Below, piece by piece: positions 4,854 through 9,423 of a stretch of 64,000 bases of DNA (its first letter is position 1; each line of letters starts with the position of its first letter). The stretch lies in assembly GCF_003334255.1 (NCBI RefSeq), contig NZ_QOWU01000019.1, one strand, 5' to 3'. This DNA is from Escherichia coli. Its GTDB lineage: Bacteria; Pseudomonadota; Gammaproteobacteria; Enterobacterales; Enterobacteriaceae. The position numbers were made by a program, and so were the translations under genes. The notes beneath the pieces were generated by a model. It was given only the letters and a program-made list of their open reading frames with translations, made no database searches and had not been told where the DNA came from.

Positions 4854-5761
4854 GTCATTTCCTCAAACGAAAACAAAGTCAGCATCATTACTGTGGATAT
4901 TGATAGTCTCCACACCCTGTCGGACGAGAGCGTTTAGTTATCAGGGGGAGAATGAGTATCGCCTCCAAAATTGGGATGTACTTATAAAGTATTTTTTAGT
5001 TTAAAAAATATAGCTGAATCGTTTCATTGTTATCTTCCATGAATAAATGTTATGGAATAATACTTTTTGGGTATTTTTTGTTTATGCTTGTAACACTTGT
5101 GTGCTATCCCGATATAACCTTAAGACTGGAGTTGCAACTGGAGCTCGTCGAAAATCAACGCCCAAATCCTCGACAAATGGAGAAAGAGAATGAGCAATAT
5201 CACCAGGAATAGTTTAGTTGTAGCAGGCGTTCTGGCTTATGGCAGGGAATGTTGCGTTGGCATCTGATGTGCCTACTGAAGTGACTCTAATAGAAAAACA
5301 AACGCTGGTACGTAACAACGGTGCAGAGGTTCAGTCAGAGCAGGACACTGACTGTCGTCTGAGAGGAAGTGGATAAAGCCGGAGCAAGAGAGCCAAATCA
5401 TGATCGATTCGAATGCCAAACTATGATCGATTCAGATGCCATTTTGCAATTAATTTAAAGTTTTATAAAAAACATGACAAAAAATATGTTATATAGTTGT
5501 ATATAAAGTATTATTATCTGAACAGGTTATTATATATTAAATGGAACAGAAGATTATTAATTACTTATCCAGTAATAGCCCTGCAAAATTAGGCGTTTTA
5601 TTGAATGATTTAAATATAACAAAGGAGGTGCATTACTCCGCAACATTAATTTTAGAAGAATTATACACCAGAGAAATGTTGGTGTAATTCTCTTGTGTGA
5701 TAATGTTATACAGAATATGCAAATGTAGTTTACATTTGTCCTGTCTATTCTTATTTGTAAG

Positions 5762-5990
5762 CGTTAACCGAGTGCCGCATTGACGCTTATTTATTAGTGA
5801 GTACTACGTTCCATGGCGAGAGTTCGTCAACACGGTTGGAAGGCCATTCCAGTAGTACGCCCAGGATATGGCGCAAATACGCTTCCGGGTCGATACTGTT
5901 CAGTCGGCAGGTGCCAATCAGCCCGTACAGTAGCGCTCCACGCTCTCCACTGTGATCGTTGCCGAAGAACACGTAGATGATATGACCTTT
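5762..5990 (-). mobile_element. IS66-family element 3' remnant (transposase C-terminal fragment plus terminal repeat)
   Basis: ORF 5787-5972 encodes the conserved IS66 TnpC C-terminus (…LYGLIGTCRLNSIDPEAYLRHIL…SPWN); terminal sequence tgtaagcg at ~5760-5770; truncated on the other side by the IS110-type insertion. Confidence 0.55.
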
Positions 5991-6032
5991 ATATACTCAC
6001 TATAGCATTGGTGGGATATTCCAGAGGTCATC

Positions 6033-6939
6033 ATGGATTCGGAAAATATTGCAGCTTACGTCGGGCTGGATGTTCATAAAGAAACCTTGGCGATTGCTAC
6101 ACCTGAATGGCTTGGCGAAGTTCGTTATTATGGTACGATTAACAACGAAGTCCTGGCTGTACATCGATTATGTCAGAAATTGCAGGGACCTTACGGAAAC
6201 ATTCTTTCCTGCTATGAAGGTGATCCCTGTAGTTTTGGGCTATATCATCAACTCACAGTGATGAATATAAAATGCCTGGTTATTGCCCCCTTCCCGTATA
6301 CCCAAATCACCGGCAGACAGGATCAAAAATGACCATCGGGATGTAATTTCTCTCGCCAGGTTACTGAGGGATGGTGAGGTTCCCCCAGTCTGGCTCCCTG
6401 AGCTGACTCATGAAGCTATGCGGGATTTAATCAGAGCCCATGCCGCTGCAAAACGTGACACGAACAGACAAACGTTATGCCAGGAAGCACTGAACCGGCA
6501 AACATCGAACCTGGTTAGTTAATCAATCATTTGGTCTGCTATCTCAACAGATTGCTTTCAACATTATTGTCAGAATCTGGAGCAGATTGAAGATCGCATA
6601 CTTCAACTCGATCAGGAAATATCTCGCCTGTTACCTGAGTGATCTCTGTGCAATCTGGTCTGCCAGTTGCAGGCTCTTAAAGGTGTTGGTCAGCTAATCG
6701 CAATAACCCTGGTTGCTGAACTGGGTGATTTTTCTCGATTTTCCAATCCTGAACGGCTCATGGCTTTTCTGGGACTGGTGCCAGGTGAATATTCCAGCGG
6801 AAACAGCATTCGCCCCAGAGGAATAACAAAAGTTGGAAACAGTGAACTGAGACATCTGCTTTACGGATATCAAATAAATTCAGATTATTTAACAGTAAAA
6901 CCCCACTTATGTGATGAATCTCATAAAAAAGCAAAGTGA
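6033..6939 (+). pseudogene. IS110-family transposase, disrupted by frameshifts
   Basis: Three consecutive ORF fragments (6033-6332, 6283-6522, 6667-6939) in different frames; N-terminal VGLDVHKETL motif and C-terminal LKGVGQLIAITLVAELGDFSRF…PGEYSSG motif typical of IS110-family transposases. Confidence 0.65.
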
Positions 6940-7172
6940 AGTAATAATATCCAATTTATCCCTCATTCCTTAAGTAAGCGTACACTGGCCGCGTACACCA
7001 TGGCATAATAATACGTTGTTTTACTGATATTTCCGGCTGTTAAAATCCCCGACGGCCCGGCTGAAGCTGGTGCAGGAAAGCGGGTTAATTGTCACTACGC
7101 GGGATAGCCTGTCTGGCTGGATACAACGTATTGCCACAGATATGCAGCAACTGCGTCAGTCCGGAATGTCAG

Positions 7173-7445
7173 TCATCTCCGGGGATGTTGAGGTCTCAGG
7201 CACACTGACCGGCCCCCCGTGTTGTTTCCGGGTACTGTTTTTGATTTATGCAACAAAGTATCGCAGCGTCGAATATGAGCTATGGCCAGATTTTTGTTAA
7301 TCGTGGTTGTTGCAACATGTAAGGCGAATGACCACACTATTCTGGCACGCTCGTAATCACGCTGAAATTCCGCTTCCTGTGCTGCCGTGAAGAGTTCCGA
7401 CCAGGACATACGGCGAAGTGTATGTCTGTCAGTAATATCCGTCAT
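7173..7445 (-). CDS. Hypothetical small protein (90 aa); has a diverged paralog at 13956-14171
   Basis: ORF overlapping the upstream ORF by 4 nt; a ~75% identical nucleotide segment occurs in inverted orientation at ~13950-14180, and this frame is the better conserved one. Confidence 0.35.
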   Translation of the reverse strand: MTDITDRHTLRRMSWSELFTAAQEAEFQRDYERARIVWSFALHVATTTINKNLAIAHIRRCDTLLHKSKTVPGNNTGGRSVCLRPQHPRR

Positions 7446-7657
7446 GAGCTCTCAGCCTCCTCCTTCGTATTTCCGTCAGAAACACAAACGCCCCGCAGAG
7501 AAAATTCGCCAACATTCTCCTTTTTAATGGCGCGCAATGCATCGCGACAGGCCCGTTCGGTATGAAATGCCTGGCTGTGCACCGCCAGTGTGGGCTGCCG
7601 GGCATCACCGGAAGAGACATTAAAGGGAGATGAAAGCCAGAAAATCAGTAGCCACAT
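7442..7657 (-). CDS. Hypothetical small protein (71 aa) with hydrophobic N-terminus (possible signal peptide)
   Basis: ORF within a tightly packed co-oriented cluster; N-terminal MWLLIFWLSSPF hydrophobic stretch. Confidence 0.3.
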   Translation of the reverse strand: MWLLIFWLSSPFNVSSGDARQPTLAVHSQAFHTERACRDALRAIKKENVGEFSLRGVCVSDGNTKEEAESS

Positions 7658-7660
7658 GCG

Positions 7661-8044
7661 TCACACCTCGTCCTTTTTATGCGGGTATCTGGCCAGAATA
7701 TTGAGCGCCTGTAATGGAGCTTCATGCATTTCACGGATACAACGGGCATCGGTGATGTTTTCCCTGTAATGCGTGGTTTCCAGCATCATATGATGCATAT
7801 GCAGCATCCGGGCCAGGGCTGCGCGGAGTTCTTCAATATGTTGTTCATGGGAATACTGGCGGGGCTGTATCCGGCAGAGAGGGATAACCTCCACATCATC
7901 CGGGTGCGCGCGAAGCCACGCGTCAGTGACTGCAATGTCTTCAGTGTAAAACCATGTGCCGGATGTCCCGTTGGCCAGAAAACGCATTTTCCAGGCTTCT
8001 GGGGTGGCGGTTGTGTTGTTATCTTTCATGGTGCCACCACTCAT
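7661..8044 (-). CDS. Hypothetical protein (127 aa)
   Basis: ORF 3 nt upstream of the next ORF and overlapping the preceding one by 4 nt; no family recognised. Confidence 0.35.
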   Translation of the reverse strand: MSGGTMKDNNTTATPEAWKMRFLANGTSGTWFYTEDIAVTDAWLRAHPDDVEVIPLCRIQPRQYSHEQHIEELRAALARMLHMHHMMLETTHYRENITDARCIREMHEAPLQALNILARYPHKKDEV

Positions 8045-8232
8045 TCAACAGGCTTAATGCTGTCCAGGCGCAGTCTGCTCAGACTGTCGTGGCTGCCACA
8101 GCGGCGTCCTGTACTTTTGCTGTAGCACTCCTGCCCCCTGATACACCATGCCGTTGGCGTTTCGTAGAGGCTGACACGTCGGGTTTTATCTTTACTGGCT
8201 AGAAGCCCGGTGTGAGTTTTTGTCTTTTTCAT
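8041..8232 (-). CDS. Hypothetical small basic protein (63 aa)
   Basis: ORF overlapping the downstream ORF start by 4 nt (operon-like coupling). Confidence 0.25.
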   Translation of the reverse strand: MKKTKTHTGLLASKDKTRRVSLYETPTAWCIRGQECYSKSTGRRCGSHDSLSRLRLDSIKPVE

Positions 8233-8319
8233 CGGTGGGGTACAAACGCAGAAATTTTGTTGTCATCAGTTTTTGCCTGCAGAGGCCTGAAAAGACAGCG
8301 TTTTCAGGCCCTGTTCAGG

Positions 8320-8562
8320 TTAGTGAATATTCTTGCCTGGCCTTTCGGCAATATCAATCCCCTGAAGTTGCATGGATATCCCATGCCCATTGAGCATCTG
8401 GCTGTCCATGGAATGGATACCGCATGTCATCATCAGGTTGTAACAAAGCGTACTCAGCATGGCGAGTGCCTCTTCTGAGGATTTACAATGTGTGTTCATA
8501 AGGGCCAGAAACTGCTCAACAACATCCGGGTTAATGCTGGTACTGTGTATTTCATCCTTCAT
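8320..8562 (-). CDS. Hypothetical small protein (80 aa); possibly a YmgA/AriR-like small regulatory protein
   Basis: Start trimmed to the ATG at 8562, which has an AAGGA RBS 4-8 nt upstream; weak resemblance of the C-terminal end (…GKNIH) to the YmgA family; family assignment is a guess. Confidence 0.3.
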   Translation of the reverse strand: MKDEIHSTSINPDVVEQFLALMNTHCKSSEEALAMLSTLCYNLMMTCGIHSMDSQMLNGHGISMQLQGIDIAERPGKNIH

Positions 8563-8679
8563 GATGTGTCCTTGTTTTTTATTATTTTGCATTTCAGAAA
8601 ATAACACGATGCATGTAACCCAGAAAACCGATATGTGCACGCGTAGTCACTTTCTGGCAGATTCCGGTCTCTGAAACAA

Positions 8680-9240
8680 AATACGAGGTGGCATGAAGCG
8701 GATTGTGGCGGACAGGGAAAGTGATTTGATTCCGGGGAAGGCGCTGTGCAGCAGTCTTATCCGGCAGTTTAAAGGGGTGGACGGAGACCAATGAGGCACT
8801 GGAGCAGATTCAGTGCAGAGGTGACCTGCTTTATCAAACTTAATTGTGACAAAATGGCGATTGAGAAGGTGCAATTGACTTATCCGGATTCGGTCGTGGC
8901 GAGGTGGTGACCCTGCATTCTGCTAACCGGGTTATGAGCCAGGAGTCAGCGATAGACAAAGGGACTTATCTGACCGGGCCCCCGGAAAAATGGCGGGAGA
9001 GAATGATACCTTCCTGCTGACGAGACCGGACTTTGAGATGACGAGCGATAGTGCGGCAGTGATGTACAGCCTGATCGGTAGCTGCAAAACTTAACGGAAT
9101 CGAGCCGGAAACGTGGCTACGCCACGTGATCAGTGTAATCAACACCTGGCCTGCCAACCGCATGAAAGAGTTGTTGCCCTGGAACGTCACTCTCTCTGTA
9201 AACTAATTTTTACCCCACGTCCTTCACGGTGCGCTTACAC
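8680..9240 (+). mobile_element. IS66-family element 3' remnant (frameshifted transposase C-terminus plus terminal repeat)
   Basis: Plus-strand translation across ~8950-9210 gives the IS66 TnpC C-terminal motif (…MYSLIGSCK…NTWPANRMKELLPWN) broken by stops; terminal gcgcttaca at ~9230-9240; inverted relative to the remnant at 5762-5990. Confidence 0.5.
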
Positions 9241-9423
9241 TCTGGACAAGTATGTAAATGATAAGTTAAAAATAATCCGTGCATTTCCTGTGACGATATT
9301 AGTTGTTGGTAACGAAATCTCATTAGCGGATCGGAAATGCACTTAACCTAATACGTTGCCACTGTTCCGCCAGGAGTTGCAGTGGCAACGTATTCTACCG
9401 TCAGTGATAGCGTTTTGTTATTA

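What the first reader, a model, noticed from the sequence alone, without database searches (positions are those of the whole stretch)
7173..8562. Operon-like cluster of four to five overlapping small ORFs of unknown function embedded in IS debris
Four co-oriented ORFs (63, 127, 71, 90 aa) are packed with 4-nt overlaps or 3-nt gaps (8232 down to 7173), preceded by a further 80-aa ORF with a good RBS. None matches a family I can name with confidence. One encodes a probable signal peptide, and the upstream small protein has faint resemblance to YmgA/AriR-type connector proteins. Tight coupling argues for real, co-translated genes rather than noise, and island-borne small-gene operons of this kind are often toxin/antitoxin or regulatory modules.
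Basis: seen in the sequence. Interest (0 to 1): 0.5.

Follow-up and report, generated by a model that had tools for sequence, protein, structure and literature searches.

The report
Plasmid-derived small-gene block beside iha
The five small ORFs are real, conserved genes captured from IncI-complex conjugative plasmids into an E. coli virulence island; one resembles a small anti-activator regulator, the rest have no known function, and nothing suggests a toxin/antitoxin pair.

Summary
Five co-oriented minus-strand ORFs (80, 63, 127, 71 and 90 aa) lie at the stated coordinates, tightly packed and flanked by IS remnants. They are not noise and not fragments of a larger gene. The same block, in the same order, is a fixed accessory segment of I-complex (IncI1/K/B/O/Z) conjugative plasmids, between excA-pnd(hok) and ECs1377-nuc-trbA. 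It occurs in 999 of 5,426 complete E. coli genomes, mostly chromosomal, next to iha. Divergent alleles (66-78% nt identity) keep every frame, with dN/dS 0.08-0.16.

The last ORF is a three-helix protein that consistently hits the ANR (AraC negative regulator, Aar-like) model just below its cutoff. The other four match no Pfam or NCBIfam family. orf63 and orf71 belong to function-unknown phage families. The C-terminal half of orf127 is a widespread, unannotated ~50-aa domain.

Published TraDIS on plasmid pMS7163B, which carries this block, covers four of the five genes. Those four are dispensable for plasmid maintenance and surface conjugation, which argues against a toxin/antitoxin module. The YmgA/AriR resemblance is unsupported.

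Best reading: an mobile-element accessory operon ending in an ANR-like protein-binding regulator. That mechanism is inferred, not shown. Interest is low to moderate.

The parts
8320..8562 (-). orf80: an 80-aa acidic protein of unknown function. In plasmids it always lies divergently next to the hok/pnd killer gene. It is a separate unit from the four downstream genes.
   Evidence: ORF and RBS. dN/dS is 0.16 against a 77%-nt allele. It has no Pfam, NCBIfam, PHROG, PADLOC or PDB match. All 89 homologous clusters are unnamed, most exactly 80 aa. One allele occurs in 8,651 blocks of the collection, and in the three places shown it has the same synteny. It is absent from the paralogous trio loci.
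8276..8319 (-). Stable 13-bp hairpin immediately after the orf80 stop codon, with no U tract. It may be a transcript-end or stabiliser element separating orf80 from the operon.
   Evidence: MFE -24.4 kcal/mol, z = -2.65. It is conserved in plasmid lineages, with paired C->T changes in both arms that give G.U pairs. The consensus scan did not call it a terminator.
8041..8232 (-). orf63: a 63-aa basic protein (pI 10) with three conserved Cys. It belongs to a phage and plasmid family of unknown function.
   Evidence: phrog_1226 E = 1e-16, and it also occurs as a domain of longer phage proteins. Homologues occur in 100 phage records, mostly Stx2a-converting phages. dN/dS is 0.12 at dS 1.6. It is often left unannotated in RefSeq records although intact.
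7661..8044 (-). orf127 (probably 122 aa, starting at 8029): an N-terminal domain restricted to close relatives, plus a C-terminal ~50-aa helical domain shared with many small proteins, including one in a prophage-like gene array.
   Evidence: It has no Pfam, NCBIfam, PHROG or PADLOC hit. dN/dS is 0.13 at dS 2.1. An exhaustive profile search found 72 representatives, the remote ones matching only profile positions ~62-114, with the motif LxxALxRMxxMHxLMMxKxNHGxSFYDAxCIREMNEAPxQA. The AF2 model is poor (pLDDT 50). Start-codon evidence.
7442..7657 (-). orf71: a 71-aa protein with a short hydrophobic N-terminus (MWLLIFWLSSPF) and two conserved Cys. It belongs to a phage and plasmid family of unknown function.
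   Evidence: phrog_3766 E = 2.5e-11. A 54-aa homologue lies directly after 'EaD' in Klebsiella phage 2b LV-2017. dN/dS is 0.08. Hydropathy.
7173..7445 (-). orf90: an ANR/PerC-like three-helix small protein (core residues ~13-69). The tail after residue ~70 is lineage-specific; the plasmid form is 83 aa.
   Evidence: NCBIfam ANR_neg_reg NF033650 scores 24.6 bits against a cutoff of 32. Relatives score 20.6-30.7 bits over nearly the whole 54-position model. AF2 gives pLDDT >90 over residues 11-65, with helices at 15-27, 31-44 and 48-69. Beyond its own family, the Foldseek hit list is dominated by proteins annotated as ANR and PerC regulators. Alignment A3 shows a conserved core and a variable tail.
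7040..7213 (+). Degraded 3' fragment of the convergent ECs1377-family winged-HTH gene, which follows the block in plasmids. Its 3' end overlaps the 3' end of orf90.
   Evidence: tblastn of the plasmid ECs1377 protein aligns aa 139-197 at 67% identity. The intact plasmid gene scores 298 bits on NF052300 and hits HTH_39 PF14090.
6034..6864 (+). IS110-family transposase pseudogene bounding the block on one side.
   Evidence: PGAP annotation of the identical record NZ_CP060083.1, mapped as window = 17701 - L001 coordinate.
9056..9206 (+). Transposase fragment between the block and iha (9424..11514, minus strand). It occupies the position where the plasmids carry hok/pnd.
   Evidence: PGAP annotation. 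The plasmid context, with Hok/Gef upstream of orf80.

Best explanation
Shown: the cluster is a ~1.65-kb piece of the I-complex (IncI1/IncK/IncB/O/IncZ) conjugative-plasmid backbone. It is the accessory segment between excA-hok/pnd and ECs1377-nuc-dqlB-trbA. It was captured into an E. coli genomic island next to iha and trimmed by IS elements, losing hok on one side and most of the ECs1377 gene on the other. It holds five genuine protein-coding genes under purifying selection. These comprise a solitary gene (orf80), then a hairpin, then a tightly packed unit orf63-orf127-orf71-orf90. The order of that four-gene unit is preserved in a second allele so diverged that synonymous sites are saturated.

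Inferred: the four genes form one operon of small accessory proteins of the kind that plasmids and temperate phages carry to act on host factors. The last product is a divergent ANR-like three-helix protein. It most likely works as the characterised ANRs do, by binding another regulator (an AraC/XylS-type activator or H-NS) rather than DNA. That would tune host or element gene expression and reduce carriage cost. The three upstream proteins have no assignable biochemical role. The block is not needed for plasmid replication, stability or surface mating, and it is not a toxin/antitoxin pair.
For: Origin and synteny: 100% identity to E. coli G1/2. The block is found in 999 of 5,426 complete genomes, at 812 chromosomal and 263 plasmid places, and in 599 PLSDB plasmids, 510 of them conjugative. 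The gene order is identical on I-complex plasmids.

Real genes: frames are intact in all loci. dN/dS is 0.08-0.16 against alleles with dS 1.05-2.1, with third-position excess p<=5e-4. An in-frame 9-nt deletion is tolerated in a chromosomal copy.

Operon: the order 63-127-71-ANR-like is conserved in the ~72%-nt paralogous allele on IncK2/Z and IncFIB/IncI-gamma/K1 plasmids. On the IncF plasmid L009 the same order is present but the ANR-like gene is cut short.

ANR-like protein: every family member hits NF033650 nearly end to end at 20.6-30.7 bits. The AF2 three-helix model is confident. Proteins annotated as ANR or PerC regulators dominate the non-self Foldseek hits. The published ANR mechanism is protein-protein binding to AraC-family regulators and to H-NS (abstracts of PMC4983702, PMC5570504 and PMC10148876).

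Links to phages and other mobile elements: PHROG hits and contexts in phages and a prophage-like array.

Dispensability: the pMS7163B TraDIS gives logFC -0.78, +2.08, +1.29 and +1.62 for the orf80, orf127, orf71 and orf90 homologues, with abundance values (apparently logCPM) of 12.6-13.2 (PMC10286972, S1 Table A).
Against: The ANR assignment is below the curated cutoff, and direct profile comparison with Aar is weak (hhalign probability 4%). No AraC/XylS gene is adjacent in any locus examined, unlike canonical ANRs. dN/dS for orf90 among close alleles is only 0.3-0.8, from very few substitutions. Co-transcription is inferred from spacing alone, and no convincing sigma-70 promoter was found. 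Four of the five proteins have no functional handle at all. The chromosomal copy may be an inert passenger: the neighbouring ECs1377 gene is truncated and all chromosomal copies are >98% identical, so selection after capture cannot be measured.
Confidence: 0.6

Rival explanations
1. Inert relic. The genes are functional on plasmids, but the chromosomal copy in this window is a hitch-hiking fragment with no role in its present host. It persists only because the capture is recent and the island spreads clonally or horizontally.
For: The block is bounded by IS pseudogenes, hok/pnd is lost, and the ECs1377 gene is reduced to a degraded fragment. The orf90 tail is altered relative to the plasmid form. 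Chromosomal copies are 98-100% identical, so they give no independent signal of selection. A second ANR-like copy in the same island is already frameshifted.
Against: The sampled full-length chromosomal matches carry four or five annotated CDSs with no pseudogene named under the match. The ORFs are intact in the loci fetched, and the one indel seen is in-frame. Neighbouring IS-derived genes have decayed, whereas these have not.
Confidence: 0.25
2. Modulator of conjugative transfer. The products damp the expression or activity of the neighbouring tra/trb genes, acting as a fertility-control module.
For: The block sits inside the transfer region, upstream of and co-oriented with trbABC. Transposon insertions in the orf127, orf71 and orf90 homologues were enriched after mating (logFC +1.3 to +2.1), as were insertions in ECs1377 (+2.9) and nuc (+2.2). 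In the R64-type plasmid pESBL, the region flanking trbA and pndCA holds a protein annotated as fertility inhibition and an Hha/YmoA-like regulator (PMC4288162 table).
Against: [quoted passage not shown] The one candidate, impB, did not validate. Enrichment across the whole co-oriented stretch is also what read-through from the transposon promoter into trbA would produce. The chromosomal copies have no tra genes to regulate.
Confidence: 0.12
3. Toxin/antitoxin, abortive-infection or other defence or anti-defence module.
For: The features are small overlapping genes on a mobile element, adjacency to hok/pnd and dqlB type I toxins in plasmids, and phage homologues of orf63 and orf71 in early accessory regions.
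Against: There are no hits in PADLOC, and no toxin or antitoxin domains in Pfam or NCBIfam. None of the four assayed genes behaves as an essential antitoxin: insertion abundance is like that of neutral genes (about 12.6-13.2, against 0.98 for repA and 7.8 for parB). The orf127 homologue P0078 occurs alone, without partners.
Confidence: 0.06

Closest known systems
ANR (AraC negative regulator) family: Aar of EAEC 042, Rnr, Cnr (NCBIfam NF033650)
   Same: It is small (the plasmid form is 83 aa, 9.4 kDa), basic, and has three helices spanning the core. It aligns end to end with the 54-position ANR model, sharing the A..AE...D...A...W..A....N......A....C pattern seen in Aar. Proteins annotated as ANR regulators are the commonest named proteins among the non-self structural neighbours.
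   Different: It scores 20.6-30.7 bits, against a cutoff of 32 and 65.7 bits for Aar. It carries a 15-25-residue variable tail. It is the last gene of a four-gene unit rather than a lone gene. No AraC/XylS activator lies nearby. It sits in a conjugative-plasmid transfer region or a UPEC-type island rather than a virulence regulon.
PerC/Pch family small regulators (Pfam PF06069)
   Same: It shares the helical-hairpin fold class, and several proteins annotated as PerC regulators appear among the Foldseek neighbours. The distant orf127 homologue P0078 lies in a locus with three PerC genes.
   Different: Pfam reported no PerC match for orf90, even at E<=10. PerC proteins are activators, whereas ANRs are anti-activators.
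Small accessory ORFs of temperate-phage early regions (exo-xis/ea and nin regions of lambdoid phages)
   Same: These are short, tightly packed, co-oriented genes. orf63 and orf71 belong to PHROG families, with members in Stx2a-converting phages and after EaD in a Klebsiella phage. The orf127 C-terminal domain occurs in a prophage-like gene array beside an integrase.
   Different: No sequence relationship to a named lambda protein was found. The EaD protein of the Klebsiella phage is unrelated to orf127, and the orf127 domain found no match in the phage collection.
Accessory slot around pnd in R64-type IncI1 plasmids (pESBL Hp24-Hp28, Hha/YmoA)
   Same: It occupies the same backbone position next to pndCA, and holds small non-essential genes that include a nucleoid-associated-protein modulator (PMC4288162 table).
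   Different: The gene content differs. Homology between pESBL Hp25 and orf80 was not tested.

Membership tests
ANR family (NF033650) | Score at or above the curated family cutoff (32 bits) | tested here: not met
   The window protein scores 24.6 bits. Family members score 20.6, 21.7, 28.3 and 30.7 bits. Aar, as positive control, scores 65.7 bits.
ANR family (NF033650) | Low-mass protein (<10 kDa) with three conserved alpha-helices spanning its length (PMC4983702) | tested here: met
   AF2 places helices at 15-27, 31-44 and 48-69, with pLDDT >90 over residues 11-65. The plasmid form is 9.4 kDa. The window form is 10.5 kDa because of a lineage-specific tail.
ANR family (NF033650) | Genetic association with an AraC/XylS-family activator | tested here: not met
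   No AraC/XylS gene is annotated within the flanks of any locus fetched. The nearest regulator is the ECs1377 winged-HTH protein (HTH_39).
ANR family (NF033650) | Direct binding to AraC-family proteins and/or H-NS, with repression of their regulons | not testable with these tools
   This needs two-hybrid, pull-down or complementation of an aar mutant.
Type II toxin-antitoxin module | Recognisable toxin or antitoxin domain | tested here: not met
   None of the five proteins has a toxin or antitoxin match in Pfam, NCBIfam or PADLOC.
Type II toxin-antitoxin module | Antitoxin gene cannot be disrupted while the toxin is intact | tested here: not met
   In the published pMS7163B TraDIS, the homologues of orf80, orf127, orf71 and orf90 all carry abundant insertions (about 12.6-13.2). 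orf63 was not annotated there, so it was not assessed.
YmgA/AriR (YmgB) connector proteins, for orf80 | Sequence match to the family profile or to the solved YmgB structure | tested here: not met
   There is no Pfam-A hit at E<=10, no NCBIfam hit at E<=0.1, and no PDB-sequence hit at E<=10. That these libraries contain YmgB is from my own knowledge. No structure prediction was run for orf80.
Sec signal peptide, for orf71 | Positively charged n-region, a 10-15-residue hydrophobic core, and a small-residue cleavage site | tested here: inconclusive
   There is no Lys or Arg before the hydrophobic stretch. The hydrophobic window covers only the first ~9-11 residues. The N-terminus is near-invariant between alleles and is retained in the phage homologue, together with two conserved Cys. 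No dedicated signal-peptide predictor was available.
I-complex plasmid backbone segment (excA-pnd ... nuc-trbA) | Same genes in the same order between the same backbone genes on MOBP/MPF_I plasmids | tested here: met
   Searches show the full flanking order on I-complex plasmids. The mosaic plasmid retains only the downstream flank. PLSDB typing gives IncK2/Z, MOBP and MPF_I. The window retains the segment from just upstream of orf80 to the 3' end of ECs1377.

The most novel reading that the evidence does not exclude
orf63-orf127-orf71-orf90 is a previously unrecognised mobile regulatory operon. A divergent ANR-like anti-activator works together with three dedicated small partner proteins to reprogramme host transcription, for example by counteracting H-NS silencing or AraC-type regulators of fimbrial, iron or virulence genes. 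This module has been recruited repeatedly next to virulence genes (iha, epeA, ireA) in pathogenicity islands and virulence plasmids.
Probability: 0.12. Interest if true: 0.55.

Novelty: new member of a known kind. Interest (0 to 1): 0.27.

Why it matters
The block is carried by about a fifth of complete E. coli genomes, including UPEC-type islands and the Nissle 1917 island, and by a very large population of resistance-bearing I-complex plasmids. Yet all five genes are still 'hypothetical' or carry absurd inherited names ('neurotensin receptor R8', 'FlgM', 'P-loop NTPase'). Recognising the block as one plasmid-derived unit with an ANR-like terminal gene gives a concrete, cheap hypothesis to test: binding to H-NS or AraC-type regulators. 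It would also correct the annotation. If the ANR-like protein is active, it could link plasmid or island carriage to host virulence-gene regulation. If it is not, the block is simply a well-conserved passenger. Either way it is not a new kind of system.

Tried and rejected
- **Pfam-A:** none of the five ORFs has a significant hit.
- **PADLOC:** no hits.
- **PDB sequence searches:** searches for four of the ORFs, for the orf127 family profile and for the orf127 C-terminal domain profile found only chance-level hits.
- **AF2 on orf127:** with a 7-sequence alignment the model reached pLDDT 50, too poor for a fold search.
- **Ead/Ea22 lead:** I suspected from memory that the orf127 C-terminal motif was the Ead/Ea22-like domain of lambdoid phages. 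I reject this. orf127 finds nothing in 50,697 phage records. The remote homologue P0123 matches phages only through its N-terminal part. The 'EaD' protein next to the orf71 homologue is unrelated. NCBIfam and PHROGs give no named family.
- **Direct hhalign of the orf90 family against Aar:** weak. The ANR link rests on the family HMM and the fold.
- **Rfam:** a scan of 5000-12000 found nothing.
- **Promoter and terminator scan:** nothing convincing for the operon.
- **Literature:** searches for CFT073 locus tags (guessed from memory as c3611-c3615) and for the 'R8' name gave nothing useful.
- **Leading-region anti-defence island:** I considered this reading and reject it on position. The block lies between excA and trbA within the transfer genes, not beside ssb/psiB/ardA. 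The TraDIS paper assigns its leading-region genes elsewhere.
Full report
**Observation.** The minus strand of window 7173-8562 carries the five ORFs described: 8562..8320 (80 aa), 8232..8041 (63 aa), 8044..7661 (127 aa), 7657..7442 (71 aa) and 7445..7173 (90 aa). ATGA overlaps lie at 8041-8044 and 7442-7445, and a 3-nt gap lies between the 127- and 71-aa frames. Shine-Dalgarno-like motifs precede orf80, orf71 and orf90. The window is 100% identical to the chromosome of E. coli G1/2. PGAP annotates all five there as hypothetical proteins, flanked by IS110-family and other transposase pseudogenes, with iha immediately upstream. One detail needs correcting. The first ATG of the 127-aa frame is absent in the divergent allele, and PGAP and the homologues start at the second Met (window 8029, 122 aa). 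The orf63/orf127 overlap is therefore not conserved, although the genes stay about 10 nt apart.

**Where it comes from.** The 1.6-kb stretch is present in 999 of 5,426 complete E. coli genomes, at 812 chromosomal and 263 plasmid places. It is also in 599 PLSDB plasmids, 510 of which are typed as conjugative. On I-complex plasmids (PLSDB typing IncK2/Z, MOBP, MPF_I) the same genes in the same order occupy a fixed slot in the transfer region: traY - excA - (TnsA-like) - hok/pnd - orf80 - orf63 - orf127 - orf71 - orf83/90 - ECs1377-family gene (convergent) - nuc - dqlB - trbABC. A mosaic IncFII-replicon plasmid carries the block with the downstream flank only. One orf80 allele is recorded in 8,651 blocks of the assembly collection, and the three places shown have this synteny. 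In the window the plasmid homology runs from about 8697 to about 7040. hok/pnd has been replaced by a transposase fragment. Only a degraded 3' piece of the ECs1377 winged-HTH gene survives (window 7040-7213, plus strand). The cluster is therefore a captured, IS-trimmed piece of a conjugative-plasmid backbone. The same chromosomal arrangement next to iha occurs in UPEC-type islands (with sat and pap genes) and in a Nissle-derived strain.

**Are they genes?** Yes. All five frames are intact in every locus examined. A second, paralogous allele of orf63-orf127-orf71 plus the ANR-like gene lies next to epeA/S6-peptidase on I-complex plasmids and next to ireA on an IncF plasmid. It is about 72% identical in nucleotides by blastn. 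Over the aligned codons, identity between the window and the divergent alleles is 66-78%. Between them, dN/dS is 0.16 (orf80), 0.12 (orf63), 0.13 (orf127) and 0.08 (orf71), at dS 1.05-2.1. Differences pile up at third codon positions (p = 9e-5 to 2e-8). orf90 is too diverged from its paralogue for dS to be estimated (44% aa identity). It still keeps its frame and an invariant core (MSW..L...DY...I.W..A......INKNLA.A.I..C). Among close alleles it has few substitutions, and dN/dS is 0.3-0.8. Its tail beyond residue ~70 differs between the plasmid (83 aa) and island (90 aa) forms, and overlaps the 3' end of the convergent ECs1377 gene. Conserved gene order at saturated synonymous divergence is the main argument that orf63-orf90 is one functional unit. 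orf80 is absent from the paralogous loci and is followed by a conserved 13-bp hairpin (dG -24.4 kcal/mol, z -2.65, no U tract). I therefore treat it as a separate, pnd-associated gene.

**What the proteins are.**
- **No family assignment.** None has a significant Pfam-A hit and none hits PADLOC.
- **orf63.** It belongs to phrog_1226 (E = 1e-16), and the same domain occurs inside longer phage proteins. Homologues lie in Stx2a-converting phages and in a Yersinia phage.
- **orf71.** It belongs to phrog_3766 (E = 2.5e-11). A 54-aa homologue with the same MW(L/V)LI(F/I)W N-terminus and two conserved Cys follows 'EaD' in Klebsiella phage 2b LV-2017.
- **orf127.** Its full-length family is narrow. 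An exhaustive profile search showed that its C-terminal half is a ~50-residue domain (LxxALxRMxxMHxLMMxKxNHGxSFYDAxCIREMNEAPxQA). That domain is fused to many different N-termini in 60-220-aa proteins. One of these lies in a packed array of small ORFs beside a phage integrase. The domain has no PDB, NCBIfam or named PHROG match. The AF2 model of orf127 was unusable (pLDDT 50). A 55%-identical homologue stands alone in a locus with T3SS, PerC, ProQ and SSB genes.
- **orf80.** It has no match to anything named, and all 89 related clusters are hypothetical, most exactly 80 aa.

**The one functional handle.** orf90 and every relative tested hit the NCBIfam ANR_neg_reg model (NF033650) across almost its full length, at 20.6-30.7 bits. 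That is below the curated 32-bit cutoff; Aar itself scores 65.7 bits. AF2 gives a confident three-helix model (pLDDT >90 for residues 11-65). This matches the published description of ANRs as proteins under 10 kDa with three conserved helices (PMC4983702). In the Foldseek search, the hits after the protein's own family (misnamed 'neurotensin receptor R8' and 'FlgM') are dominated by proteins annotated as ANR or PerC regulators, each individually weak (E = 0.02-0.3). Direct hhalign against Aar alone is weak. No AraC/XylS gene is adjacent in any locus. I therefore call it ANR-like, not an ANR family member. Characterised ANRs act by protein-protein binding to AraC-family activators and to H-NS (PMC4983702, PMC5570504, PMC10148876). 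That is the mechanism I infer for orf90.

**Experimental data from the literature.** Plasmid pMS7163B (CP026855) carries this block at 95% identity and was subjected to TraDIS (Lian et al. 2023, PMC10286972). S1 Table A gives logFC values after surface mating of:

| Gene (homologue) | logFC |
|---|---|
| orf80 | -0.78 |
| orf127 | +2.08 |
| orf71 | +1.29 |
| orf90 | +1.62 |
| ECs1377 | +2.94 |
| nuc | +2.20 |

Insertion abundance for these genes is 12.6-13.3, in what appears to be the logCPM column, against 0.98 for repA. The genes are therefore dispensable for maintenance and surface conjugation, and none of the four assayed behaves as an essential antitoxin. [quoted passage not shown] The mild enrichment could also reflect read-through into the co-oriented trbABC genes.

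**Verdict.**
- **Observation:** confirmed.
- **Interpretation:** partly right. The genes are real, coupled and possibly regulatory. The TA suggestion, the AriR resemblance and the signal peptide are not supported or not demonstrated.
- **Best explanation (confidence about 0.6 overall):** near-certain for origin and coding status, and about 0.35 for the ANR-type mechanism. The block is a plasmid-derived accessory unit: a pnd-associated orphan gene, plus a four-gene operon of small accessory proteins with phage and plasmid relatives, ending in an ANR-like protein-binding regulator.
- **Rivals:** an inert passenger in the chromosome (0.25, not exclusive), a modulator of transfer (0.12), and a TA or defence module (0.06).
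- **Novelty and interest:** this is not a new kind of system. It is a very common, still uncharacterised and partly mis-annotated block. Interest is 0.27.

Noticed in passing
window 13995-14183 (+): A second, degraded copy of the ANR-like gene lies in the same island. It is 48% identical to orf90 residues 5-69, and PGAP calls the region a frameshifted hypothetical protein.
   Followed up: partly
window ~24533-25714 (-) and ~25889-26704: The genomic island that holds iha and this cluster begins at a tyrosine integrase directly abutting ulaE. It appears to be inserted in the ula (ascorbate) operon rather than at a tRNA. Core genes (ulaF, rpsF-rplI ... ytfQRT) fill the rest of the window.
   Followed up: no
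window 7173-7445 and homologues (UniProt O87514; L005 8836-9108; L004 12678-13046): Database names for these proteins are artefacts that have propagated. The orf90 family is called 'neurotensin receptor R8', its paralogue is called 'FlgM', and one orf127 allele is called 'P-loop NTPase family protein'. None is supported by any search here.
   Followed up: yes
window 8041-8232 (-): orf63 is left unannotated in many RefSeq records (e.g. L002, L003, L015, L016). It is nevertheless intact, under purifying selection (dN/dS 0.12) and a clear PHROG family member.
   Followed up: yes
window 7664-7860 (C-terminal half of orf127); alignment A4: This is a conserved ~50-residue domain (LxxALxRMxxMHxLMMxKxNHGxSFYDAxCIREMNEAPxQA) with no Pfam hit for orf127 and no NCBIfam or PDB match. 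It is fused to varied N-terminal domains, some Cys-rich, in at least 50 representative clusters. It looks like an undescribed domain family of small prophage and plasmid proteins.
   Followed up: partly
L002 13586-13666 (downstream of the block in ST-type variants; not in this window): In some chromosomal variants the block is followed by an 81-nt pseudogene fragment, annotated as a TOTE conflict-system archaeo-eukaryotic primase, instead of the IS110 remnant seen here.
   Followed up: no
L006 4849-6293; L022 2116-4243: On some I-complex plasmids the hok/pnd gene is tandemly duplicated upstream of orf80. In L006 the duplication includes a partial orf80 copy.
   Followed up: no
L005 3606-9108; L008 1617-7108; L009 6001-12768: The paralogous orf63-orf127-orf71(-ANR-like) unit repeatedly sits next to virulence genes: the epeA/S6 autotransporter protease on I-complex plasmids and ireA on an IncF plasmid. 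This parallels the iha linkage in this window.
   Followed up: partly
window 11453-11635 (+): PGAP annotates a 60-aa hypothetical ORF antisense to the 5' end of iha. In other genomes it is flagged as a pseudogene with an internal stop, so it is probably not a real gene.
   Followed up: no
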